Virus record (IMG/VR): IMGVR_UViG_3300045988_030628
Location: 1-17,070 of that record
Source of the DNA: a virus
DNA: 17,070 nt
Direction: 5' to 3' (one strand)
The notes under the pieces: generated by a model
The model's database searches: none
Told to the model about the DNA's origin: nothing
Seen by the model: only the letters and a program-made list of their open reading frames with translations
Translations under genes and position numbers: made by a program
Part shown: positions 87 through 17,070 of the stretch, piece by piece
Position numbering within the stretch: the stretch's first letter is position 1
How the letters are laid out: each line of letters begins with the position of its first letter

Positions 87-2696
87 TTAACAGCTAAGAG
101 ACGCACAGCTAACTGTTCCAACATCAAGCCTTCCAAAAGTTACATTAGTAAAACTTTCATATTGTGAATGATCGTCTTTGATTATATTAAAAGACAGTCT
201 TACTTCGCCTTTTTCAATCGAAATAGCACCGTTAAAATCGTAGAATTTAACCGGGTTATCTTGTTGAATATATCCACTAACTACTCCACCAAACATGTTT
301 GTACCAGGTTTACCACCTTGTACTAGACAATCATCGTCTACTGTTGCAATGACAGGAATTTCACCACCAGCAATGTTAGCCCCTGCAAAGTTAATGTATA
401 TACGTCCAACATTCCATGATATAACACCGTTAGACATCCATATTTCTCCTAACCCTTCTCCTGTTATTGAATTAACAACAGCTTTGTTTGCATGAAACGG
501 TACAGTCTGTTTATATTGTACGTCACAACTACCTGTTTCAATTCCGTCTAGTAAGTAACTCGCTAATAGGTCTTGATTTTCAGTGTTTGGGTGATTTTTG
601 TCACTAGCAAAACCACCATAGTTATGCATAATATACTCAGAGTTTGTAATATATTTTGCGCCATATTTACCACATCTTGTGTAAGCAGGTAGTACATTTT
701 TAACAATCTGCTCACGTTTATCGTAATTACCACTCCAACCAATCATAGCAACATAAATGTCAGCATTTATAAACATCTGTTTAGTTTTTTCAACTGTTCC
801 TTTGATAGCTGTTGAAATACCGGATACAGTACCAGGTGCATCATTCCAACCACCTGCTATTAGAATTTTTTTAATAGATAAACGTTGTACTTCTGTCATT
901 CTATTATAAGCGTCAGTAATAAGTCCCAGAAAAGTTTTACCGGCTACACCAACGTTTACAAATCCAGAACCGCCCTCAGTTTGTTTCCAAAAGTTGACAT
1001 CTTCTGACCACCCTGCATACTCACCCATTAAAGTAGGAAATCCTTTTATATGACCCTCTGGTGTGTAACCCTCTGCGTAGCTGTCGCCGATAATAAGAAC
1101 ATTAGTTGCTATAGTAGATGAAATAAGCGGTGTCTTATTGTTTGCTGTTAGAACTTTGACTATATTTCCACTTCGGTCTTGCATAGGTATATAGCTAAAG
1201 AACTCTGTTGTTTCTAACTGTGTTGGTGTTCTATATTTTAACGGAGTGGTCGGGTTAAGGTCAATCAATGACGCTTTTATTGTTTTATAGTTGCACGTTT
1301 CAGCTGATGTCCCTTTTATAGTCTGAGTAACACTTCCATAATTTTGATTAACAGCATCAGTATATGTTTCATTTTTTTGTACGCCATTTTCAACTTTGTT
1401 AGTTTTTGTTTCAATAGTATGAATGTTTGCATTTATATTTGCATCACCAGTGTATGTCTCTGTATTTGATTTTCCGTTAGTAGCAATATCACCACTGTAT
1501 GTTTCTGTTTTATCTACGCCAGTAGAAGTAACATTACCAGTATAGGTTTCAGTTTTATTTACTGCACTTTCTGTTATATCACCGTTAACAATTTCTTCTT
1601 TTGTTTGACACTCAGTTTTATTCTTACCACCAGAATTTAAAGAAACATCACCTGTATAATTTTCAGTCTTTGTTTTTCCGTTTGCTACAGTTTTCGTATA
1701 AGAGATATTAGCGTTTTCACCTCTAACATCTAACTGTTTAATACTTCCTTTGTAAACACTTCTTGCAATTTTAACAATGTTATTTTGGCCATTATCAACA
1801 TATGTTGTATAATTTCTAACACCGTTAATTTCAACATAGTTATCATTACCGTTAATAGTGAGTAGTTTTGTTGCATCACTAGTCACAGTGCATATAATAA
1901 CGTTATTATCAGAATCAAGTTTAATAAATTCCTTTCCAACTAAAGTAGAAATAGAATTGAAAGTCACATCACTACAATTAGAATCTCCCGTACCGCTTAT
2001 AGTCAAAGCATTTTCAATAGCATGGTCAAAAACTGTATGACTAATCTGTATATTATTACTAGAAGTAAGCTTAGCTAATGTGAAGCCATCAGTAAGAATA
2101 CACTGTGAGATACTAATATTAACACCAGTACATTCAATAAGGTCAACATTATTTACCTGTATATCACCATTACCATCAAACGTAAGACCTGTCAACGTCA
2201 GTGTTTTAACATTACCTTTTAACATAGGTTCTGTTACACCACCCCTAAGCACCAATCTAGTAACATACCTACCTTGCCCAAACATGGTTACGTCACTATT
2301 TTCTGGAAGTGTTAATGTGCCAGTAAGATAAGCACCACTTGGGAAGTAAACGCACATACCGTTATGAGCTTTAGCATAATCCAAACACCCTTGAATAGCT
2401 TCGGTATCATCTGCTGACCCATCACCAACAGCAGGTTTTAAATTTTCTGGTGGATTTTTAACACTAAGCATATAATCACTTAAAATCTCTGCAATAATGT
2501 TGTTAATTTCACCACTGGAAATGTACGTTTTAATGAGTTCTCTAATGTATTTTGGTAACTCATTGTTGTTCTTAATCAGCTCGTTTAACTTTTTAACAAT
2601 TTTACCTTGTACTTCCATATAACTAAGAGAGTCATCGTACACCAAAGGTAATACCTTTAAAGTCCAGTATCTAAGTGTTTCTACGTCTGTAAACAT
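87..2696 (-). CDS. Tailspike / pre-neck-appendage-like protein (gp12 position) with a beta-helix glycanase/lyase domain, a 15-aa repeat stalk and an SGNH esterase domain
   Basis: 869-aa ORF with GAAAGGAG 6 nt upstream of the ATG at 2696.
- aa ~88-330: GDGSADDTEAIQGCLDYA...VYFPSGAYL, the signature of pectate-lyase-3-type right-handed beta-helix tailspikes.
- aa ~336-455: about eight 15-aa repeats with a KTETYTGD core.
- aa ~530-705: SGNH/GDSL blocks IIGDSYAEG, GGSGF, GGWND and DKNHP.
- It is the last gene in the phi29-type order scaffold-capsid-knob-portal-collar-appendage. Confidence 0.85.
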   Translation of the reverse strand: MFTDVETLRYWTLKVLPLVYDDSLSYMEVQGKIVKKLNELIKNNNELPKYIRELIKTYISSGEINNIIAEILSDYMLSVKNPPENLKPAVGDGSADDTEAIQGCLDYAKAHNGMCVYFPSGAYLTGTLTLPENSDVTMFGQGRYVTRLVLRGGVTEPMLKGNVKTLTLTGLTFDGNGDIQVNNVDLIECTGVNISISQCILTDGFTLAKLTSSNNIQISHTVFDHAIENALTISGTGDSNCSDVTFNSISTLVGKEFIKLDSDNNVIICTVTSDATKLLTINGNDNYVEINGVRNYTTYVDNGQNNIVKIARSVYKGSIKQLDVRGENANISYTKTVANGKTKTENYTGDVSLNSGGKNKTECQTKEEIVNGDITESAVNKTETYTGNVTSTGVDKTETYSGDIATNGKSNTETYTGDANINANIHTIETKTNKVENGVQKNETYTDAVNQNYGSVTQTIKGTSAETCNYKTIKASLIDLNPTTPLKYRTPTQLETTEFFSYIPMQDRSGNIVKVLTANNKTPLISSTIATNVLIIGDSYAEGYTPEGHIKGFPTLMGEYAGWSEDVNFWKQTEGGSGFVNVGVAGKTFLGLITDAYNRMTEVQRLSIKKILIAGGWNDAPGTVSGISTAIKGTVEKTKQMFINADIYVAMIGWSGNYDKREQIVKNVLPAYTRCGKYGAKYITNSEYIMHNYGGFASDKNHPNTENQDLLASYLLDGIETGSCDVQYKQTVPFHANKAVVNSITGEGLGEIWMSNGVISWNVGRIYINFAGANIAGGEIPVIATVDDDCLVQGGKPGTNMFGGVVSGYIQQDNPVKFYDFNGAISIEKGEVRLSFNIIKDDHSQYESFTNVTFGRLDVGTVSCASLSC

Positions 2697-10247: not shown

Positions 10248-10276
10248 ATTATAGCACAATACTTGCAAAAAATCAA
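10248..10276 (-). promoter_or_regulatory. Promoter of the holin-to-tailspike (late) operon
   Basis: On the minus strand: TTGATT (10271-10276), 17-nt spacer, TGcTATAAT (-10 at 10248-10253 with extended TG). The predicted start site is ~24 nt upstream of the holin ATG. The -10 context tgcTATAATAAAG is shared with the right-end promoters. Confidence 0.7.
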
Positions 10277-10291
10277 TGGGTGTGTTATAAT
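10263..10291 (+). promoter_or_regulatory. Promoter of the packaging ATPase gene
   Basis: On the plus strand: TTGCAA (10263-10268), 17-nt spacer, TGtTATAAT (-10 at 10286-10291). It lies ~19 nt upstream of the AAAGGAG RBS/ATG region and overlaps the minus-strand promoter back-to-back. Confidence 0.7.
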
Positions 10292-10316
10292 TAAATATAG
10301 AAAGGAGATTTTTTGC

Positions 10317-11351
10317 ATGGGAAAGTATTATGACGGTACTAAATTATTGTCAATGTTAGATATAAATGGTAACAAACCAGAAATCTATATGGTTACTTCC
10401 AACCGAAGCGCAGGAAAGACAACCTATTTTAGCAGACTGTGCATAAACAGATTTCTTGATAAAGGTGAAAAGTTTGGGCTTATTTACCGTTATAATTATG
10501 AACTTGATAATGTGGTAGATAAATTCTATAAAGATATAGGTAGTTTGTTCTTCACAGGTCATAACATGACGTCAAAAAGACGGGCAAGTGGCATTTTCCA
10601 TGAGTTATTCTTAGACGAAAAAAGCTGTGGCTATGCTATCAGTTTAAACAGTGCCGACCAGTTGAAAAAATACAGCCATTTATTTGCTGATATTTCTAGG
10701 CTAGAATTTGATGAATTTCAAAGCGAATCTAATCACTACTGTCCTGATGAAGTAAGAAAGTTCATCAGTATTCATACGTCTATTGCAAGAGGCCAAGGAG
10801 AGCAAGTTCGTTATGTACCTGTGTATATGATTGCGAACCCTGTCAGCCTTATCAACCCATATTATACAAAAATGGAAATAAGTGCTAGACTTCATAAAGA
10901 CACAAAATTTTTACGCGGTGACGGTTTTGTGTTAGAACAGGGATTCAATAAATCAGCAAGCGAAGCGCAGAAAACTAGCGGATTCAATCGAGCTTTTAAG
11001 AAAGACAGTTATGTTGGTTATAGTAGTGAATGTGTTTATTTGAATGATAACCAGAGTTTTATTGAAAGACCTACTGGAAAAAATAAATACCTTTGCACAC
11101 TTAAATATAAAGGCTGTGAGTTTGGTATAAGAGAATTTACTGAGTATGGTTACTTATACTGTGATGATAGACCAGATCGCACCTTTGGCTTAAAAATCAG
11201 CGTAACTACTGACGACCACGAGATCAATTATGTTATGTTAAAACGTAACGATTTCTTTTTGAATAATCTTCGATATTTGTTTGAGCGTGGTTGCTTTAGA
11301 TTTAAAGACCTAAGGTGTAAAGAAGCAACATTAAGCGCACTTAGTTACTAG
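10317..11351 (+). CDS. DNA encapsidation (packaging) ATPase, phi29 gp16-like
   Basis: 344 aa from ATG 10317 (RBS AAAGGAG). Walker A is TSNRSAGKTT and Walker B is RLEFDEFQ. The layout resembles gp16 (GxxGxGKS...IVFDEF...NPY). It is the only plus-strand gene. Confidence 0.9.
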   Translation: MGKYYDGTKLLSMLDINGNKPEIYMVTSNRSAGKTTYFSRLCINRFLDKGEKFGLIYRYNYELDNVVDKFYKDIGSLFFTGHNMTSKRRASGIFHELFLDEKSCGYAISLNSADQLKKYSHLFADISRLEFDEFQSESNHYCPDEVRKFISIHTSIARGQGEQVRYVPVYMIANPVSLINPYYTKMEISARLHKDTKFLRGDGFVLEQGFNKSASEAQKTSGFNRAFKKDSYVGYSSECVYLNDNQSFIERPTGKNKYLCTLKYKGCEFGIREFTEYGYLYCDDRPDRTFGLKISVTTDDHEINYVMLKRNDFFLNNLRYLFERGCFRFKDLRCKEATLSALSY

Positions 11352-11741: not shown

Positions 11742-13724
11742 TTACCTCATTTCATATGATGTATCTACTAATAGAACGCCACCACGTATCCTCTTTGGTC
11801 GTAATTTTCCAGGTACTTTCAATCCTATTTTAAATGATCTATAATCACGTTTAATAGGGTTGTTATCTTCGTAAAATAGAAATTCTTTTTCTTCATCACT
11901 CCATTCTTTATTTATATCAGCATCACCTGACAGTGATAATTCAAATAAATCTTTACAACGTTTTGGCATACCTGCACACTTTATATTGTTGTATGGTTTT
12001 TCTATTGACTCTAGGTTCTCTGCAACTACGTGTTCAATGTAAGTTTTCTGTCTTGTGAATATTGCTTTATCCCAACATGATTCCAATTTCCAACAACAAA
12101 AGTTTTTATCATGTACTTTGATTCCAATTATTTCTTCTGGTGGTAAATCACAGTGTATGCTATCTGTATCTGCATAAATAAAACCTGCTTTATCAACACC
12201 ATGATAATTCGCTTGTGCCGCTCTGATGGTAAAGTTTCTTGCATAACTTGTGATAGCTGAACCAACAGGGATATACCCTGGTTTCTTGTTTGATTCTGTA
12301 ACAGGTAAAAACCCTATTGTTTTATCATCTTTCACATATGCCAGTTTGAACGATGAATCTTTACTAGATGCCATTTTTCCGTAAAGATTATTAAGAAAAA
12401 GTTTAGCCAACTCACGCAATGCACCCTTGCTAACAAGCTTCTGGTGCTTGTATTTTTCAATGTATTCATCAAAGATACCTGTCAAAGCATAAAACCAACA
12501 TCCATCCAGTATTTCAAAATCAACTAAATCATAGTGGTCTTTCAACAACAGGTAATCTGTCATTGTCAAGACTAATTCAACCCTTGTATCTCTTAATATG
12601 CCGTCCTTATCTTTATAGAATGAAAAGTAAGAATCTGTTTTACTGTCATAAATATCTGACGATTCCAGTGCTTCTGTTCCTTTATATAAGTAAGAATTTT
12701 TTATCTGTATAAATGGTAACTTATCTTTCTTGATATAAAATCTTGTTTTAACTCTAACAAAATAATATTTATTATCTGCTATAGCTTCGTCTGGAATATA
12801 GTTTCCTTTCCAGAAACAAGGTTTACCAATAGGATACCTGTTCCCAGATTCAGACGACATCATGGATGGGTACAGTGAATTTACGTCAGCCGTAGTTCCG
12901 TTTGTTTTTATTTGGTTCTCTTTACCTTTTACTAAATAACACCAACCACCTCTGTATGATTTTCTTATATAATCTCCTGCGTTTTCATATGTGTATTCTA
13001 TAGGGTTAATACTCACATTATACACGTCTGGAAACATTTCCTTATACTCTAACTGGTTTTTGAGTGATTTCTTACATATCTCTTTGTATTCTTCCAAACA
13101 GCAAGAACCTATTGTCAGTTTATCATGCCCCTCATTGAACATAATTTCAAGTGCTTCTTTAACAACAAGGACATCATTAGCAATGTATTCTTTTTCACTG
13201 TCTGATATCTCACACCCTGCATATCGAAAACCTGTGTATTCCATGTCAAGCTTCTTATGCTTTGTGCCAAAGTTATCACCAATTCTTTTAACACTAAATG
13301 GCAAAAGCTTTAGTGAATCCCTTATTTCAATAAAGTGATTATTTACCTTTATAATAATGGTGTACCACATTCCTTTATCTGATATACTATATTTAAAGGA
13401 ATTATTTTCCATAAATTTTTCTTGCAACCACTCTACCTCATTTATAGCTTCACCTGTTTTTCTGTAAGCCTGTTTGAACCCTTTATCTATCATCAAATAT
13501 GACAACCAGAATGAACCATCAAACTTTAAGTTGTGGTAATAGGCTACGATATTACAATCTTGCTTTACAAAGTAATTAAACTGTTCATCAATTGAGTGAA
13601 AAATACTAACATTTTCTGTGAATAGTTCTACCGAAGCTGATGCCCATACCTCTGTGAACTCTTGTCCTTTATAAACAGTTGTTTCAAAGTCACACATAAA
13701 ATATCTGTACTTTTTAATCTTCAA
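11742..13724 (-). CDS. Protein-primed family-B DNA polymerase (phi29 gp2-like)
   Basis: 660 aa. Motifs: ExoI FMCDFETT, ExoII YYHNLKFDGSF, ExoIII YIANDV, motif A DVNSLYPS, motif B KLFLNNLYGK, motif C YADTDS, and KxY as RQKTYI. The annotated start is TTG at 13722-13724, overlapping the end of the upstream gene. The first in-frame ATG would leave only 2 residues before ExoI, so TTG is preferred. Confidence 0.95.
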   Translation of the reverse strand: MKIKKYRYFMCDFETTVYKGQEFTEVWASASVELFTENVSIFHSIDEQFNYFVKQDCNIVAYYHNLKFDGSFWLSYLMIDKGFKQAYRKTGEAINEVEWLQEKFMENNSFKYSISDKGMWYTIIIKVNNHFIEIRDSLKLLPFSVKRIGDNFGTKHKKLDMEYTGFRYAGCEISDSEKEYIANDVLVVKEALEIMFNEGHDKLTIGSCCLEEYKEICKKSLKNQLEYKEMFPDVYNVSINPIEYTYENAGDYIRKSYRGGWCYLVKGKENQIKTNGTTADVNSLYPSMMSSESGNRYPIGKPCFWKGNYIPDEAIADNKYYFVRVKTRFYIKKDKLPFIQIKNSYLYKGTEALESSDIYDSKTDSYFSFYKDKDGILRDTRVELVLTMTDYLLLKDHYDLVDFEILDGCWFYALTGIFDEYIEKYKHQKLVSKGALRELAKLFLNNLYGKMASSKDSSFKLAYVKDDKTIGFLPVTESNKKPGYIPVGSAITSYARNFTIRAAQANYHGVDKAGFIYADTDSIHCDLPPEEIIGIKVHDKNFCCWKLESCWDKAIFTRQKTYIEHVVAENLESIEKPYNNIKCAGMPKRCKDLFELSLSGDADINKEWSDEEKEFLFYEDNNPIKRDYRSFKIGLKVPGKLRPKRIRGGVLLVDTSYEMR

Positions 13725-14748: not shown

Positions 14749-15051
14749 TTACTGTTCTGTTACGTTTTCTTCTGTCACTGCTCTCGGTGGTAAGACTTTT
14801 GAGTGTTCAATGAAGTTCTGTTCTGTCATTCCGTAGAGTGTTTCAATTTCTTCCTTGTCAACAATGTGTACTGGTTTCAATGTTTCCGTTTCAAGAACTT
14901 CTTTCACTTTCTTGAGAAGCTTTTCATCGTCCTTGTAAGTACGTGGAACTACTACAGACTTGTTACAAGGTTCTCCTGTCTCAATGTCTAAGCACATTAC
15001 GTTGACTTTTGTTGTGATGATTGTTCTTGTTACCATTGGTACTCTTGCCAT
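14749..15051 (-). CDS. p6-like histone-like dsDNA-binding protein, paralogue A
   Basis: 100 aa, about 35-40 percent identical by eye to the 95-aa product of 15718-16005 (MAR..MVTRT...VM..D..T.E...TY..E.LLKK...T.K.V.I...E.L.GMTE..FI...VLPPR). It sits upstream of SSB as gene 6 does in phi29. There is remote resemblance to recalled p6 (..REITKTTVNV.., ..YELPVEKFLEVATV..). The C-terminal tail is acidic. Confidence 0.5.
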   Translation of the reverse strand: MARVPMVTRTIITTKVNVMCLDIETGEPCNKSVVVPRTYKDDEKLLKKVKEVLETETLKPVHIVDKEEIETLYGMTEQNFIEHSKVLPPRAVTEENVTEQ

Positions 15052-15121
15052 GTTTTTTCTTCCTCTCTTTCTTTATTTTTAAAAAACGTCAAAATATAGT
15101 TTAGTGCTATAAAGCACTAGA

Positions 15122-15212
15122 GTAGGTGACAGGGATTGAACCTGTTTCACGTGAATGAGCGATGATAGGATTTATTTAAGATTCACGCATTTTACCAATA
15201 AACTACACCTAC
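15122..15212 (-). tRNA. tRNA-like gene: canonical acceptor, D and T arms, CUU (Lys-type) anticodon loop, but a 21-nt insertion in the anticodon arm (non-canonical, possibly non-decoding)
   Basis: Minus strand: GTAGGTG-TA-GTTT-ATTGGTA-AAAT-G-CGTGA-ATCTTAA-[ATAAATCCTATCATCGCTCAT]-TCACG-TGAA-ACAGG-TTCAATC-CCTGT-CACCTAC.
- 7-bp acceptor stem.
- D loop with GG.
- T loop TTCAATC.
- T before and A after the CTT triplet.
- No encoded CCA.
- A 6-bp hairpin (15102-15119, tagtgc/gcacta) follows. Confidence 0.5.
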
Positions 15213-15220
15213 TAAGGGGG

Positions 15221-15256
15221 TAGGTGGCACAGTGGATTGAAAGTCTGCACCACCTA
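15221..15256 (-). ncRNA. Acceptor/T-arm-like minihelix upstream of the tRNA-like gene
   Basis: Minus strand: TAGGTGG-TG-CAG-ACTTTCAATCCA-CTG-TG-CCACCTA. The 7-bp stem nearly repeats the tRNA-like acceptor stem. The loop shares the 8-mer TTCAATCC with the tRNA-like T arm. Confidence 0.45.
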
Positions 15257-15302
15257 TGGCAAACGTAACTCGAATTTTTGTTTATTATCTTGCTACAATT
15301 AT

Positions 15303-15331
15303 ATAATAGCATATGACGATCTAAATGTCAA
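15303..15331 (-). promoter_or_regulatory. Strong SigA-type promoter driving the minihelix, tRNA-like element, p6-like A and SSB
   Basis: On the minus strand: TTGACA (15326-15331), 17-nt spacer, TGcTATTAT (-10 at 15303-15308). The -35 context ATACTTGACA resembles the right-end promoters (GTACTTGACA). It begins 3 nt after the stop of the 85-aa gene. Confidence 0.75.
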
Positions 15332-15334
15332 GTA

Positions 15335-15592
15335 TTATTTGAATTTTTTCCGAACAAAATACTTATCCAAAATGAACTGCTTATATTGATTTTTTATCGT
15401 GTCTGATACGATTTTCGCTGTCATATATGAACTTGCTCGTAATTCAATACGCGGTATAGCTGTGTGCCAACATAAACAGTGATTTACATAAATGTCCACC
15501 ACAAGAGTACCGTTTACCACTGATATGGCTACATCATCCTTGATGTCCTCTTTAATCATTTCCTTTACTAACTTTACATAGTGTTTACTCAT
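15335..15592 (-). CDS. Hypothetical early protein (85 aa, basic C-terminus)
   Basis: ATG at 15592 with RBS AAAGAGGGAA. The ORF-track 100-aa version starts upstream without an RBS. No recognisable motif. Confidence 0.6.
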   Translation of the reverse strand: MSKHYVKLVKEMIKEDIKDDVAISVVNGTLVVDIYVNHCLCWHTAIPRIELRASSYMTAKIVSDTIKNQYKQFILDKYFVRKKFK

Positions 15593-15629
15593 TTTTGTTC
15601 CCTCTTTCTTTCTGGTTTTATTTTGATTA

Positions 15630-15705
15630 GTTTCCACACCTTGTTGGTGCTAATGGGTGAACAGCGTTGAAACTGTAATCGTGCCTAACCACGCACCCTT
15701 GTTAG
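15630..15705 (-). repeat. Structured intergenic repeat, copy 1 (three-way junction plus flanking hairpin; D-armless tRNA-like)
   Basis: About 90 percent identical to 16041-16115.
- Core 15655-15698: outer stem GGGTG/CACCC.
- Enclosed hairpins: ACAG-cgttgaaa-CTGT and CGTG-cctaac-CACG.
- Flanking hairpin: CACC-ttgtt-GGTG (15637-15649). Confidence 0.8.
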
Positions 15706-15717
15706 TTTTGACTAACT

Positions 15718-16005
15718 TTATGCATTTTTAGTATTTCTAGGTGGAAGGACTGTAGCGTATCTGATAAAGTCCTCTTCTGTCATTCCAAGAAGTAAATCCT
15801 CAACCTTAGTACTGTTGATATTTACAAGCTTGAATGTATCGGTCTGGAAAAGCTTCTGTAGCTTTTTGAGCAGAATTTCGTTAGTGTCGTATGTGCCACC
15901 GATAGTGTACTCACGTATCTGTACTTCTGCCGTTGTGACATCAATCGTCATAACTTCTGCCGTTGTCTGGGTTACTGTCCTTGTTACCATTTTTTCTCTT
16001 GCCAT
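15718..16005 (-). CDS. p6-like histone-like dsDNA-binding protein, paralogue B
   Basis: 95 aa from ATG 16005 (RBS AAGAGGT). The 126-aa ORF-track version extends through the structured repeat and is rejected. Paralogous to 14749-15051. Confidence 0.5.
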   Translation of the reverse strand: MAREKMVTRTVTQTTAEVMTIDVTTAEVQIREYTIGGTYDTNEILLKKLQKLFQTDTFKLVNINSTKVEDLLLGMTEEDFIRYATVLPPRNTKNA

Positions 16006-16040
16006 AGTAATACCTCTTCTTTCTATTGCGTTGTTTATTG

Positions 16041-16115
16041 GTTTCTGCACCATGTAGGTGCTAATGGGCGGACAGCGTTGAAACTGTAATCGTGCCAACC
16101 ACGCGCCCTTGTTGT
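16041..16115 (-). repeat. Structured intergenic repeat, copy 2
   Basis: Core 16066-16108: outer stem GGGCG/CGCCC, a compensatory change relative to copy 1. It encloses ACAG-cgttgaaa-CTGT and CGTG-ccaac-CACG. The flanking hairpin is GCACC-atgta-GGTGC (16047-16061). Confidence 0.8.
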
Positions 16116-16313
16116 TTACATTACATAACCTTCGTCTATGGCATATGAAAGTGTGTACTCATTCACAAAGATTATTTCTTTGACTCCACCTTCATCATAC
16201 TCATAGCACTCATTATTTTCATGTATTCTAACTAACCCTAAAGTAAAGTCAATACCGTCACATTCATCAAATTGTGAAGAATCACCATTCCAAAAAGTTA
16301 TAAGTAAACTCAT
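16116..16313 (-). CDS. Small, highly acidic early protein (65 aa)
   Basis: ATG at 16313 with RBS AAGGGGG 7 nt upstream. The track start at 16319 is a GTG 1 nt from the RBS. There are about 14 Asp/Glu against 2 Lys/Arg. No recognisable motif. Confidence 0.6.
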   Translation of the reverse strand: MSLLITFWNGDSSQFDECDGIDFTLGLVRIHENNECYEYDEGGVKEIIFVNEYTLSYAIDEGYVM

Positions 16314-16856: not shown

Positions 16857-16890
16857 TTTGTTTCCACCTTTTTCTTTTCTTTGTACCTTT

Positions 16891-16919
16891 ATTATATCAT
16901 ATGGTTACTTGTTTGTCAA
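16891..16919 (-). promoter_or_regulatory. Right-end early promoter P2 (perfect consensus)
   Basis: On the minus strand: TTGACA (16914-16919), 17-nt spacer, TATAAT (16891-16896), followed by AAAGGTACAAAGA. Confidence 0.85.
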
Positions 16920-16984
16920 GTACTTTCTTGTACTTTTTTATTTTTTCTTTTTTATCACTTCCGATCTTCTTTCTTTGTACCTTT

Positions 16985-17013
16985 ATTATAGCACAGGTGC
17001 TGGCACTTGTCAA
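16985..17013 (-). promoter_or_regulatory. Right-end early promoter P1 (perfect consensus)
   Basis: On the minus strand: TTGACA (17008-17013), 17-nt spacer, TGcTATAAT (-10 at 16985-16990), followed by the same AAAGGTACAAAGA. It lies 94 bp upstream of P2 and ~38 bp from the ITR. Confidence 0.85.
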
Positions 17014-17050: not shown

Positions 17051-17070
17051 GGGTTTGAACTTTAATGGGG
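17051..17070. repeat. Right inverted terminal repeat (20 bp), genome terminus
   Basis: Exact reverse complement of bases 1-20. Confidence 0.95.

What the first reader, a model, noticed from the sequence alone, without database searches (positions are those of the whole stretch)
15630..16115. Two ~76-nt structured repeats with a compensatory stem change; with the tRNA-like locus they punctuate the early operon
Copies at 15630-15705 and 16041-16115 are about 90 percent identical. Each fills the gap between two early genes on the coding (minus) strand.

The core is a three-way junction. An outer 5-bp stem encloses hairpins CGTG-GUU(A)GG-CACG and ACAG-UUUCAACG-CUGU. A further hairpin follows, (G)CACC-5 nt-GGUG(C).

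There are four differences in the 44-nt core. Two are the paired change GGGTG/CACCC to GGGCG/CGCCC (T15658:A15695 becomes C16069:G16105). One of the other two lies at the unpaired junction next to the outer stem, and one is a 1-nt indel in a hairpin loop. This substitution pattern suggests selection on structure.

Segment by segment the element parallels the 3' two-thirds of the neighbouring tRNA-like gene:
- CGTG..CACG versus the anticodon stem CGTGA..TCACG;
- ACAG-TTTCAACG-CTGT versus the T arm ACAGG-TTCAATC-CCTGT;
- CACCC versus CACCTAC.
The element therefore looks like a D-armless tRNA derivative.

In copy 2 the two loops also carry complementary tetramers, GUUG and CAAC.

All three tRNA-derived modules have the same layout: upstream stop, tRNA-like fold, small hairpin, RBS. 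This suggests tRNA-style punctuation of a polycistronic phage mRNA, either as RNase P/Z processing sites or as 3'-end stabilisers. As far as I know this has not been described for phi29-like phages.
Basis: partly seen in the sequence, partly recalled or inferred. Interest (0 to 1): 0.8.

Follow-up and report, generated by a model that had tools for sequence, protein, structure and literature searches.

The report
Mini tRNA mimics punctuating phage mRNA
Two repeats between early genes of this small phi29-like phage fold, on the mRNA strand, into miniature tRNA look-alikes with no anticodon arm; they belong to a conserved family in related gut phages and probably mark where host tRNA-processing enzymes cut the long early mRNA, which has not been shown experimentally.

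Summary
Two copies (15630-15705 and 16041-16115, minus strand = mRNA sense) are 87% identical. Each folds into the described three-way junction plus a 3' hairpin, and the T15658:A15695 / C16069:G16105 compensatory change is real.

Comparative data turn a two-copy anecdote into a family. A covariance model finds 64 confident copies in related 15-17.5 kb phage contigs, all on the gene-sense strand of the early region. Seventeen of 19 base pairs show compensatory changes.

Divergent members carry canonical T arms (GGUUCAAUUCC, GGUUCGAUUCC). One gives a near-threshold, full-length match to Rfam's mascRNA tRNA-like model. At the homologous leader site of the replication operon, relatives carry a canonical tRNA-Met or tRNA-Gln, a tRNA with a bloated anticodon arm (as here), or a bare acceptor+T minihelix.

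The elements are therefore tRNA top-half mimics. They are better described as anticodon-arm-less than D-arm-less. A hairpin of variable sequence starts one or two bases after the discriminator position in 48 of 55 distinct copies.

Most likely function, inferred and not shown: RNase P/RNase Z processing signals that leave hairpin-capped mRNA ends. This would resemble plant mitochondrial t-elements or MALAT1-mascRNA.

I found no phage precedent. I rate it a new variant of a known kind.

The parts
16064..16110 (-). Copy 2, tRNA-mimic core (tRNA-style positions 1-72).
- Acceptor-like stem: AAGGGCG (16110-16104) pairs with CGCCCAU (16070-16064). It has 5 Watson-Crick pairs plus an A2xA71 mismatch and A1:U72.
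- D-like hairpin: CGUG-GUUGG-CACG (16103-16091).
- Linker: AUU (16090-16088).
- T-like arm: ACAGU-UUCAAC-GCUGU (16087-16072).
- Junction: C (16071).
   Evidence: Sequence. MFE fold. CM hit 98 bits. Parse.
16047..16063 (-). Copy 2: discriminator-like U73 (16063) and A74 (16062), then hairpin GCACC-UACAU-GGUGC (16061-16047), which starts at position 75.
   Evidence: Across relatives the hairpin sequence varies with compensatory changes (helix 4: 5 of 5 pairs with two-sided change).
16006..16046 (-). Copy 2: A-rich spacer and RBS (AGAAAGAAGAGG) up to the ATG of the p6-like gene B at 16005-16003.
   Evidence: RBS..ATG segment identity is 0.98 among 19 close genomes.
15653..15700 (-). Copy 1, tRNA-mimic core.
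- Acceptor-like stem: AAGGGUG (15700-15694) pairs with CACCCAU (15659-15653).
- D-like hairpin: CGUG-GUUAGG-CACG (15693-15680).
- Linker: AUU (15679-15677).
- T-like arm: ACAGU-UUCAAC-GCUGU (15676-15661).
- Junction: U (15660).
   Evidence: CM hit 99 bits.
15636..15652 (-). Copy 1: U73 (15652) and A74 (15651), then hairpin GCACC-AACAA-GGUGU (15650-15636).
15701..15716 (-). Upstream hairpin GUUAGU-CAAA-ACUAAC. It lies one base after the p6B stop codon and ends flush with position -1 of copy 1. It is present at every copy that lies upstream of the 85-aa gene family.
   Evidence: sixth fold; gap of 0 nt in 19 of 55 distinct copies, which are the ones in this genomic position.
15593..15635 (-). 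Copy 1: spacer and RBS (AGAAAGAAAGAGGG) up to the ATG of the 85-aa gene at 15592-15590.
15121..15212 (-). Third module: tRNA-like gene with a 7-bp acceptor stem, a D arm, a canonical T arm and a 24-nt insertion in the anticodon loop.
   Evidence: Rfam tRNA 50.4 bits. ARAGORN. Fold. Comparative series.
15102..15119 (-). Hairpin UAGUGCU-UUAU-AGCACUA starting at position 75 after the tRNA-like gene. This is the same geometry as in the two repeats.
15213..15331 (-). Promoter (TTGACA-17-TATTAT with TG, 15331-15303) and a ~75-nt leader. The leader has the conserved GUUACGUUUGCCAUAG, a 10-12-bp hairpin (about 15256-15221) and a C-rich tail that abuts the tRNA-like gene.
16891..17013 (-). Two tandem consensus promoters (12 of 12 matches, extended -10) that drive the early transcript containing both repeats. 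No terminator-like site lies between them and the repeats.
   Evidence: D11 repeat.
15718..16005 (-). p6-like dsDNA-binding protein gene B (95 aa), downstream of copy 2. It is a paralogue of gene A (14749-15051), which lies downstream of the tRNA-like gene.
   Evidence: phrog_6370, E 3e-5 and 4e-5. D4 repeat.

Best explanation
What it is:
- Each repeat is a cis-acting RNA module within the early polycistronic mRNA.
- The core, about 47 nt, mimics the top half and elbow of a tRNA. It has an acceptor-like stem, a short D-like hairpin whose loop ends in GG, a 2-3-nt linker in place of the anticodon arm, and a T-like arm with a UUCAA loop.

Proposed mechanism (inferred, not shown):
- Host RNase P cuts at the 5' edge of the acceptor-like stem. 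Predicted sites are 16111|16110 and 15701|15700, or two bases further in if only the 5 Watson-Crick pairs count.
- RNase Z cuts after the discriminator-like base. Predicted sites are 16063|16062 and 15652|15651.
- This excises a mini-tRNA and splits the transcript.
- The upstream fragment of copy 1 would end in the flush hairpin 15716-15701, giving 3'-exonuclease protection.
- Each downstream mRNA would begin one base before a stable hairpin, protecting it against 5'-dependent decay such as RNase J.
- About 25 nt of A-rich spacer and a strong RBS follow.

The whole ~110-nt unit behaves as a portable 'process, cap, translate' 5'-UTR cassette. It was copied in front of two genes. The tRNA-like gene ahead of the p6A-SSB-TP-DNA polymerase operon would do the same job there.
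For: Shown:
1. RNA structure on the mRNA strand. The MFE equals the proposed fold. 64 CM hits at E<1e-4 are all gene-sense and all in early regions. 17 of 19 pairs have two-sided changes, 97.2% of cells are paired against 79.3% in shuffles, and slid controls give 22-46%. GU:AC is 27:2.
2. tRNA mimicry. There is a graded series from canonical tRNA-Met(CAU) and tRNA-Gln(UUG), through tRNAs with 24-41-nt anticodon insertions, to 44-61-nt acceptor+T minihelices at homologous sites. Divergent mini-elements have GGUUCAAUUCC or GGUUCGAUUCC T arms with 7-bp acceptors stacked on 5-6-bp T stems. There is a full-length sub-threshold hit to mascRNA-menRNA, whose D arm consensus GUGGU.GGCAC matches the window's CGUGGUUGGCACG. 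MAFFT aligns hairpin 1 to the D arm.
3. What is conserved is the part that RNase P/Z recognise, while the anticodon region is free to vary or vanish. L035 lost the 5' acceptor strand and hairpin 1, yet re-formed a 4-bp acceptor (AACG/CGUU) on the T arm.
4. Geometry. A downstream hairpin of unrelated sequences starts at N75 or N74 in 48 of 55 distinct copies and after the tRNA-like gene. The upstream hairpin ends at -1 in all copies upstream of the 85-aa gene family.
5. None of the listed copies has CCA after the discriminator position. From textbook knowledge, encoded CCA blocks RNase Z.
6. Both repeats lie inside one transcription unit, with no promoter or terminator at the elements.

Precedent:
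- Plant mitochondrial t-elements are cut by RNase P/Z to make mRNA ends (PMC1920247).
- A bacterial tRNA-like YrlA module is cut by RNase P (PMC4201824).
Against: - No RNA-end data exist, so cleavage is pure inference.
- In the window's own copies the acceptor has only 5 contiguous pairs (A2xA71 mismatch). Across the family, layers 1 and 2 pair in only about 60% and 48% of distinct cores.
- Chen et al. attribute the failure of RNase P to cut some YrlA RNAs to the lack of a 7-bp acceptor.
- The T loop is UUCAAC in a 6- or 8-nt loop, not the canonical 7 nt. One unpaired base separates the T stem from the acceptor in the window copies.
- Rfam's tRNA and mascRNA models give no hit on the window copies even at E<=10.
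- A hairpin flush against the RNase P site could hinder leader binding.
- Single-sequence folding z-scores are weak.
- One close relative (L037) lacks the copy upstream of p6B, so it is dispensable there.
- Much of the covariation comes from a CM-fitted alignment of related sequences, which inflates the counts.
Confidence: 0.5

Rival explanations
1. The element is a tRNA mimic that acts without being cut. It could be a folded platform in the 5' UTR that binds a tRNA-elbow or acceptor reader, such as the ribosome, EF-Tu, the CCA-adding enzyme or a modification enzyme. It could also be a decoy or sponge for a host tRNA-directed defence nuclease or toxin. Alternatively it could simply be a rigid insulator that keeps the RBS region unstructured.
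For: - The same structural evidence applies as for the main explanation.
- The GG loop and UUCAA loop that would form an elbow are conserved.
- The short or mismatched acceptor in many copies is a poor RNase P determinant.
- The element is sometimes located right after a promoter, where nothing needs separating (L057:221).
Against: - It does not explain why a hairpin of any sequence must begin exactly at N74/75, nor why an upstream hairpin ends at -1.
- Anticodon nucleases could not be decoyed by an RNA with no anticodon arm.
- No candidate binding partner is encoded nearby; the neighbours are p6-like, SSB, TP and DNAP.
Confidence: 0.2
2. The element is a regulatory RNA of another kind: an operator bound by a phage protein (for example autoregulation of p6-like or early genes), a small-molecule riboswitch, or a new self-cleaving ribozyme whose three-way junction only resembles a tRNA.
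For: - The element is a conserved three-way junction with invariant loop nucleotides, located in 5' UTRs about 60 nt upstream of start codons.
- It is associated with p6-like genes in most genomes.
- It belongs to no known Rfam family.
Against: - The graded series to bona fide tRNAs at a homologous site and the canonical T arms in divergent members make independent, non-tRNA logic unnecessary.
- No hammerhead, twister, pistol or hatchet core motif is present, and there is no Rfam hit.
- There is no expression platform: no terminator, and the RBS is about 40 nt from the structure and not sequestered in the MFE folds.
Confidence: 0.1
3. The elements are evolutionary debris. They would be decaying copies of the tRNA-like gene that were co-duplicated with the p6 gene and its 5' UTR, then homogenised by recombination between copies, with no function of their own.
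For: - p6A and p6B are paralogues, each preceded by a tRNA-related module.
- The two window copies share the whole UTR including the RBS.
- Both copies within one genome often share rare variants, for example CGCUC in L041, which suggests gene conversion.
- L037 lacks one copy.
Against: - Compensatory substitutions maintain all stems across lineages whose DNA polymerases are only about 77-97% identical.
- The core is more conserved (0.83) than codon position 3 of the adjacent gene (0.75) or the upstream flank (0.54).
- Minihelix pairing was re-established after a deletion (L035).
- In a 17-kb genome with tightly packed genes, about 235 nt of dead spacer is unlikely to persist.
Confidence: 0.1
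4. The repeats act at the DNA level, as protein-binding or replication-related repeats. Candidates include sites for the p6-like protein or a transcription factor, or hairpins in displaced single-stranded DNA during protein-primed replication.
For: - They are repeats in the early region of a phage that replicates by strand displacement.
- The neighbouring genes encode DNA-binding proteins.
Against: - GU outnumbers AC 27 to 2 at fixed paired columns, so only the mRNA-sense strand keeps the pairs. The plus strand does not fold.
- Primary sequence is replaced wholesale in divergent members while the pairing is kept. This is the signature of a folded single strand, not of a duplex binding site.
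- All copies have the same orientation relative to the genes.
- Displaced mRNA-sense single-stranded DNA cannot be formally excluded.
Confidence: 0.03

Closest known systems
mascRNA / menRNA tRNA-like small RNAs at the 3' ends of MALAT1 and MEN-beta (Rfam RF01684)
   Same: - Both are tRNA-like modules embedded in a longer transcript.
- The acceptor stem is followed with no spacer by a 3-4-bp D-like hairpin with a GUUGG-type loop. The Rfam consensus GUGGU.GGCAC compares with the window's CGUGGUUGGCACG.
- The anticodon region is reduced and a T arm is present.
- L106:535-580 aligns over the full model.
- From my own knowledge, mascRNA is excised by RNase P and RNase Z and thereby defines the end of the upstream RNA.
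   Different: - mascRNA is a vertebrate nuclear lncRNA and still has a short anticodon stem-loop.
- The window copies give no Rfam hit at E<=10, and the best relative scores 37.8, below the gathering score of 42.5.
- The similarity must be convergent.
t-elements of plant mitochondria (Forner et al. 2007, PMC1920247)
   Same: - Both are non-canonical tRNA-like folds, with a conserved T arm plus an acceptor-like stem, located in leaders and trailers of mRNAs.
- In t-elements, mapped mRNA 5' and 3' ends coincide with the element borders and are attributed to RNase Z and RNase P.
- Canonical tRNAs and degenerate elements are used interchangeably at comparable positions. The same is seen here.
   Different: - t-elements belong to an organelle genome, not a virus.
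- They were recognised by the GGTTCRANYCC motif, which the window copies lack (CAGTTTCAACGCTG), although divergent relatives have it.
- t-elements are not described with obligatory flanking hairpins.
- Processing has been shown for t-elements and not here.
tRNA punctuation of animal mitochondrial polycistronic transcripts (Ojala, Montoya and Attardi 1981; from my own knowledge)
   Same: tRNA-shaped units between cistrons serve as the cut marks for RNase P/Z.
   Different: Mitochondrial punctuation uses functional, decoding tRNAs, some of which are armless. The elements here have no anticodon arm at all and cannot decode.
RNase III processing sites between the early genes of phage T7, and Bs-RNase III sites in SP82 early mRNA (from my own knowledge)
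   Same: - They have the same logic in a phage early operon. Repeated structured elements in intergenic gaps cut a polycistronic mRNA and leave terminal hairpins that stabilise the products.
   Different: - Those sites are roughly 20-bp irregular duplexes recognised by RNase III.
- The elements here have stems of 4-7 bp around a three-way junction, which is not an RNase III substrate.
tRNA-like module of bacterial and phage YrlA Y RNAs (Chen et al. 2014, PMC4201824) and the tRNA-like domain of tmRNA
   Same: - These are bacterial-world RNAs that keep the acceptor, T arm and D-loop features but lack a decoding anticodon arm.
- M. smegmatis YrlA is cut by RNase P and receives CCA.
   Different: - They are stand-alone non-coding RNAs with other partners (Ro60/Rsr, SmpB), not intergenic mRNA elements.
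- There is no Rfam hit to either family, apart from an 18-nt T-arm match to tmRNA in L095.
phi29 prohead RNA (pRNA, Rfam RF00044)
   Same: Both are structured three-way-junction RNAs encoded near the early genes of a phi29-like phage.
   Different: - pRNA is 120-174 nt and has its own promoter.
- There is no Rfam hit.
- Loop complementarity is not conserved.
- The elements lie inside mRNAs.

Membership tests
tRNA (Rfam RF00005) | Four-arm cloverleaf that includes an anticodon arm and scores above the gathering threshold (29 bits). | tested here: not met
   No match on 15580-16140 even at E<=10. A 2-3-nt linker replaces the anticodon arm. The neighbouring gene at 15121-15212 does score 50.4 bits.
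tRNA (Rfam RF00005) | T arm: a 5-bp stem with a 7-nt UUCRANY loop. | tested here: inconclusive
   The window copies have ACAG(U)-UUCAAC-(G)CUGU, which is 5 bp with a 6-nt loop or 4 bp with an 8-nt loop. Divergent family members have canonical GGUUCAAUUCC or GGUUCGAUUCC.
tRNA (Rfam RF00005) | 7-bp acceptor stem stacked directly on the T stem. | tested here: inconclusive
   The window has 5 pairs plus an A2xA71 mismatch plus A1:U72, with one unpaired base before the T stem. Many relatives have a perfect AAGGGUG/CACCCUU stem abutting a 6-bp T stem. Layers 1 and 2 pair in about 60% and 48% of 48 distinct cores.
mascRNA-menRNA (Rfam RF01684) | Score at or above the gathering threshold of 42.5 bits. 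| tested here: not met
   The window copies give no hit at E<=10. The best relative, L106:535-580, scores 37.8 bits, E 4.5e-4, with model positions 1-56 of 56 matched.
mascRNA-menRNA (Rfam RF01684) | Excision from the host transcript by RNase P (5') and RNase Z (3'). | not testable with these tools
   Needs RNA-end mapping or enzyme assays.
Plant-mitochondrial-type t-elements | Non-canonical tRNA-like fold containing the conserved T-arm motif GGTTCRANYCC. | tested here: inconclusive
   The motif is absent from the two window copies (CAGTTTCAACGCTG). It is present in family members L106:529, L019(-):581 and L083:1599, and in L079 and L092 copies.
Plant-mitochondrial-type t-elements | The element borders coincide with mapped mRNA 5' or 3' termini. 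| not testable with these tools
   No transcript-end data are available. The only support is indirect: hairpins sit at -1 and at N74/75.
phi29 pRNA (Rfam RF00044) | Sequence and structure match to the family, and conserved complementary loops for intermolecular ring formation. | tested here: not met
   No Rfam hit in the whole window at E<=1. GUUG/CAAC complementarity occurs only in some copies.
RNase III processing sites (T7 R-sites type) | A roughly two-turn (about 20 bp) double-stranded stem. | tested here: not met
   All helices are 4-7 bp and are arranged around a three-way junction.
Intrinsic terminators | GC-rich hairpin followed by a U tract. | tested here: not met
   No terminator-like site is found at either repeat. 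The 3' hairpins are followed by AGAAAC....
Known small self-cleaving ribozymes and riboswitches (Rfam 15) | Match to any curated covariance model. | tested here: not met
   No match at E<=10 on 561 nt covering both copies.

The most novel reading that the evidence does not exclude
The excised ~47-nt anticodon-less mini-tRNAs might themselves be the functional product, together with the tRNA-like RNA and its conserved ~75-nt leader. In that reading, a phage-encoded set of small tRNA-shaped RNAs would be CCA-tailed after release. They would then act in trans in one of two ways:
- as decoys or inhibitors for host enzymes or defence toxins that attack tRNA acceptor ends or elbows;
- as the missing prohead-RNA equivalent of the packaging motor in these non-Bacillus phi29-like phages.

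The evidence here neither supports this over simple cis-processing nor excludes it.
Probability: 0.12. Interest if true: 0.85.

Novelty: new variant of a known kind. Interest (0 to 1): 0.6.

Why it matters
If the inference holds, a clade of very small gut phages organises its early gene expression with tRNA-shaped cut marks. This principle is known from mitochondria, plant t-elements and MALAT1, and from synthetic tRNA-gRNA arrays. I could not find it described for phage mRNAs.

The family offers a natural deletion series, from canonical tRNA through tRNA with a bloated anticodon arm to a 44-nt acceptor+T minihelix. That series shows which tRNA features bacterial RNase P/Z need in vivo.

It also gives a compact (~110 nt) natural 'cleave, cap with a hairpin, translate' cassette that could serve as an insulator part in Firmicutes.

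Finally, it warns annotators that 'tRNA genes' called in phi29-like metagenomic phages (noted without comment in PMC11476376) are often not decoding tRNAs.

Tried and rejected
- **Rfam.** The whole window at E<=1 gave only the tRNA-like gene. The repeat region at E<=10 gave nothing. The repeats therefore belong to no known family.
- **pRNA-like ring formation through GUUG/CAAC loops.** Rejected, because the complementarity is not conserved.
- **Anti-CRISPR repeat mimic.** From memory I noticed that GGGCGCGUGG resembles the 3' half of type I-C CRISPR repeats, and that the plus strand contains GTTGAAAC. I rejected this because no matching 5' hairpin strand precedes it, the spacing to GAAAC is wrong, and the pairing evidence fixes the functional strand as the mRNA strand.
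- **Terminator or attenuator at the repeats.** No U tract and no scan hit.
- **RNase III site.** The stems are too short.
- **GenBank phages.**
  - Megablast of the whole genome gave only a 53-nt hit to Hungatella phage CH17P1.
  - blastn of the region hit only the p6B gene of MT835814.1.
  - CH17P1 has a different early-region layout and no such element, so it is not a ready culture model.
  - MT835814.1 does carry all three modules.
- **Genome-contig scan with the degenerate element pattern.** 0 hits in 185,579 species genomes. No host clue and no cellular homologue.
- **First related-loci run.** It failed on a one-base coordinate error. The p6B ATG is at 16005, not 16006.
- **Literature.** Five searches found no description of tRNA-like punctuation in phage mRNAs.
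- **Not used.** Protein structure prediction, the protein homology searches and the metagenome scan were not needed for an RNA element.
Full report
**Context**

The window is a complete 17,070-bp linear genome with 20-bp inverted terminal repeats (I9). Almost all genes are on the minus strand.

It is phi29-like. It encodes a family-B DNA polymerase (11742-13724), a probable terminal protein, a Phi29-type SSB (PF17427) and two paralogous p6-like dsDNA-binding proteins (phrog_6370).

GenBank phages contain nothing close. IMG/VR holds many relatives of 15-17.5 kb, mostly from one metagenome, 3300045988.

Three strong extended -10 promoters lie on the minus strand, at 17013-16985, 16919-16891 and 15331-15303. 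No terminator-like site lies near the repeats.

Both repeats therefore sit inside one early transcript: 57-aa, 111-aa and 65-aa genes, [copy 2], p6B, [copy 1], 85-aa gene. Next comes the third promoter, a ~75-nt leader, a tRNA-like gene, and then p6A, SSB, TP and DNA polymerase.

**The observation**

- On the minus strand each has, as its minimum-free-energy and centroid structure, a 5-bp outer stem enclosing two hairpins, followed by a separate 5-bp hairpin. The plus strand does not fold this way.
- The compensatory U:A / C:G difference in the outer stem is at the coordinates given.
- Single-sequence z-scores are modest (-1.8 and -1.4). The case therefore rests on comparative data.

**A family, not a pair**

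An exact 23-mer from the core occurs in 16 IMG/VR contigs. A degenerate pattern occurs in 32 stretches.

To avoid ascertainment by the element's own sequence, I fetched 80 loci anchored on the DNA polymerase, at 66-97% amino-acid identity. I searched them with a covariance model built from 43 distinct copies.

Every significant hit lies on the gene-sense strand upstream of the polymerase.

A stricter search (E<1e-4) gives 64 copies. On their alignment:
- 17 of 19 pairs show changes on both sides;
- 97.2% of cells are paired, against 79.3% in shuffles and 22-46% when partners are slid by 1-3 columns.

That alignment is fitted to the model, so the counts lean towards the structure.

The MAFFT alignment of the close copies already shows GC/AU/GU and UA/CG/UG alternation at two outer-stem pairs. 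Divergent members replace whole stems:
- L072: GGGCG/CGUCC, CGUG/UACG, AAACC/GGUUU;
- L060: GGUGU/ACACC, AGUG/CACU, CCAGU/GCUGG.

At fixed columns of the three-way junction there are 27 G:U cells and only 2 A:C cells. The folding strand is therefore the mRNA strand, which argues against a duplex-DNA site.

**It is a tRNA mimic**

Four observations support this.

1. Divergent members have textbook T arms and 7-bp acceptor stems directly stacked on the T stem. Examples are CAAGG-UUCAAUU-CCUUG in L106:529 and L019, GCAAGG-UUCGAUU-CCUUGC in L083, and GGCGG-UUCAACU-CCGCC in L095.
2. In the commonest variant of the element the linker U pairs with the junction A. The fold is then a 7-bp acceptor (AAGGGUG/CACCCUU), a hairpin, AU, and a 6-bp T stem, with no bulge. 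The window's copies are slightly degraded versions, with an A2xA71 mismatch and U·U or U·C at the base of the T stem.
3. Rfam's mascRNA-menRNA model aligns end to end with L106:535-580 (37.8 bits, E 4.5e-4, gathering score 42.5). It places hairpin 1 on the D arm. That model's D-arm consensus, GUGGU.GGCAC, is almost the window's hairpin 1.
4. The site upstream of p6A, which holds the window's tRNA-like gene, shows a graded series in relatives:
   - canonical tRNA-Met(CAU) or tRNA-Gln(UUG);
   - tRNAs with 24-41-nt insertions in the anticodon arm;
   - 44-61-nt acceptor+T minihelices with no anticodon arm (L083, L100, L105, L061, L088).

ARAGORN calls a tRNA in only 12 of the 60 more distant loci.

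A model-independent scan for an acceptor (at least 5 bp) next to a UUCRA T arm finds 199 sense and 84 antisense candidates. Of those placed relative to the polymerase, 150 lie in the ~3 kb upstream and 44 in the larger remainder.

Selection at these sites evidently acts on the acceptor/T/elbow part of the tRNA shape, not on decoding.

**Which arm is missing**

That may describe its ancestry. The following evidence favours a D-arm equivalent:
- MAFFT aligns hairpin 1 to the D arm and opens a 42-column gap over the anticodon arm.
- Infernal does the same on the mascRNA model.
- The hairpin-1 loop ends in GG in about 38 of 41 parsed copies. The H1-less members keep GG in the linker (ACCGGGAAC, ACCCGGUGGCAAG, AUUGGAUGUUA).

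GG plus a UUCAA loop are the ingredients of the tRNA elbow. This is an inference from established tRNA structure. I could not model it.

**Layout**

Counting tRNA-style from the T stem, a hairpin begins at N75 in 36 and at N74 in 12 of 55 distinct copies. Its sequence differs completely between lineages (GCACC, GUACC, GUGUAC, GAGAUU, GCUCA, CGGC, CCACCC, CACACA and others).

The hairpin after the window's tRNA-like gene also begins at N75 (15119).

For every copy upstream of the 85-aa gene family, a 6-bp hairpin (window 15716-15701) ends exactly at position -1.

The start codon follows at +57 to +62 in the window's clade. None of the listed copies has CCA after the discriminator position.

The two window copies are alignable over the whole UTR, including the RBS (72% over 126 columns). 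The duplicated unit is therefore a complete 5'-UTR cassette.

**Selection**

Among 19 close genomes, mean pairwise identity is:
- 0.83 in the core;
- 0.75 at codon position 3 of the adjacent p6B gene;
- 0.54 in the upstream flank;
- 0.98 at the RBS.

Two natural variants are informative.
- L035 lost the 5' acceptor strand and hairpin 1, but has a new 4-bp acceptor (AACG/CGUU) closing the T arm.
- L037 lacks the copy upstream of p6B altogether, so that copy is not essential.

**Mechanism**

The best-supported reading is that these are processing signals for the host's tRNA-maturation nucleases. RNase P would cut at the 5' edge and RNase Z after the discriminator-like base. A mini-tRNA would be released, and mRNA fragments would be left whose new ends are capped by the flanking hairpins.

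Shown:
- the fold;
- its strand;
- its tRNA-likeness;
- the fixed hairpin geometry;
- the interchangeability with real tRNAs.

Inferred:
- recognition and cleavage by RNase P/Z;
- the protective role of the hairpins. This part rests on general knowledge that 5'-proximal stem-loops protect Firmicute mRNAs from RNase J, and that 3'-terminal stem-loops block 3' exonucleases.

Precedents:
- plant mitochondrial t-elements, where mapped mRNA ends coincide with tRNA-like folds (PMC1920247);
- the RNase P-cleaved tRNA-like module of M. smegmatis YrlA (PMC4201824);
- MALAT1-mascRNA (my own knowledge).

The main weakness is the window copies' imperfect acceptor and non-canonical T loop. Chen et al. note that a 7-bp acceptor is a major RNase P determinant.

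I put 0.5 on processing and about 0.85 on 'conserved tRNA-mimicking RNA structure'.

Rivals, detailed in their own section: an uncleaved tRNA mimic that binds a host factor or acts as a decoy (0.2); another kind of regulatory RNA (0.1); non-functional duplication debris (0.1); a DNA-level site (0.03).

**Novelty**

- Rfam 15 has no family for the repeats.
- Five full-text searches found no report of tRNA-like punctuation in phage mRNAs.
- The degenerate pattern has no hit in 185,579 prokaryotic species genomes.

The principle is known elsewhere, so this is a new variant of a known kind. It has a well-defined, testable prediction for the cut sites.

Noticed in passing
window 15121-15212 (-); relatives L103, L077, L072, L083, L100, L105: The 'tRNA-Phe(aaa)' called by ARAGORN has a 24-nt insertion in the anticodon loop and is unlikely to decode. 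At the same site relatives have a canonical tRNA-Met(CAU) or tRNA-Gln(UUG), tRNAs with 35-41-nt insertions, or bare acceptor+T minihelices. Only 12 of the 60 more distant loci give an ARAGORN call.
   Followed up: partly
window about 15213-15295 (-): A ~75-nt leader RNA lies between the third promoter and the tRNA-like gene. It has the conserved GUUACGUUUGCCAUAG, a 10-12-bp hairpin and a CCCCC tail. The promoter / hairpin-containing leader / tRNA(-like) / small hairpin / RBS layout recurs in many of the 57 related leaders. If RNase P cuts the tRNA-like gene, this leader would be released as a small RNA. Its function is unknown. It could be looked at as a pRNA substitute.
   Followed up: partly
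window 15206-15226 (-): The 3' strand of the leader hairpin (CACCUAC) is identical to the 3' acceptor strand of the tRNA-like gene. It can pair with the 5' acceptor strand GUAGGUG. The scan flags this alternative hairpin plus UAGUUUAUUG as terminator-like. It might be a conformational switch or attenuator. The motif recurs, with small changes, in close relatives, but it is absent in L019 and L106.
   Followed up: partly
window 14749-15051 (-) and 15718-16005 (-): There are two paralogous p6-like dsDNA-binding protein genes, with a 51-nt stretch at 75% identity at their 3' ends (D4). In most relatives examined each paralogue is preceded by a tRNA-related module. This suggests that gene and leader were duplicated together.
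   Followed up: partly
L035:392-465 and L037 (upstream of p6B): Two natural variants were seen. L035 has lost the 5' acceptor strand and hairpin 1 but re-forms a 4-bp acceptor on the T arm. L037 has no element upstream of p6B.
   Followed up: partly
L079:520-566 and 821-867; L092:248-313, 632-678 and 974-1045: More distant relatives carry two or three copies of a different ~47-nt acceptor+T minihelix. Examples are AGGUAA..UUCGGG-UUCGAGU-CCCGAG..UUACCU and AAACCUC..UGCAGG-UUCAACU-CCUGCA..GAGGUUU. The multi-copy habit therefore recurs with unrelated sequences.
   Followed up: no
L001 = MT835814.1 (GenBank, human faeces, record has no annotation): locus positions 2796-2840, 2158-2202 and 1630-1724, locus minus strand: A public GenBank record carries all three modules: an H1-less mini-element, an H1-type element and a tRNA-like gene with an extended anticodon arm.
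   Followed up: no
window 16876-16899 and 16970-16993; 1-20 and 17051-17070: A 24-nt direct repeat (96% identical) lies beside the -10 hexamer of each of the two tandem consensus early promoters, overlapping it by two bases. The genome ends in perfect 20-bp inverted terminal repeats.
   Followed up: no
window 1341-1682 (inside the 869-aa ORF at 87-2696, minus strand): Several 28-48-nt direct repeats are spaced at multiples of 45 nt (D1, D3). They are probably a 15-residue repeat in a large structural (tail or appendage?) protein.
   Followed up: no
window 10263-11351 (+): This is the only long ORF on the plus strand (362 aa, TTG start) in an otherwise minus-strand genome. I did not examine it.
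   Followed up: no
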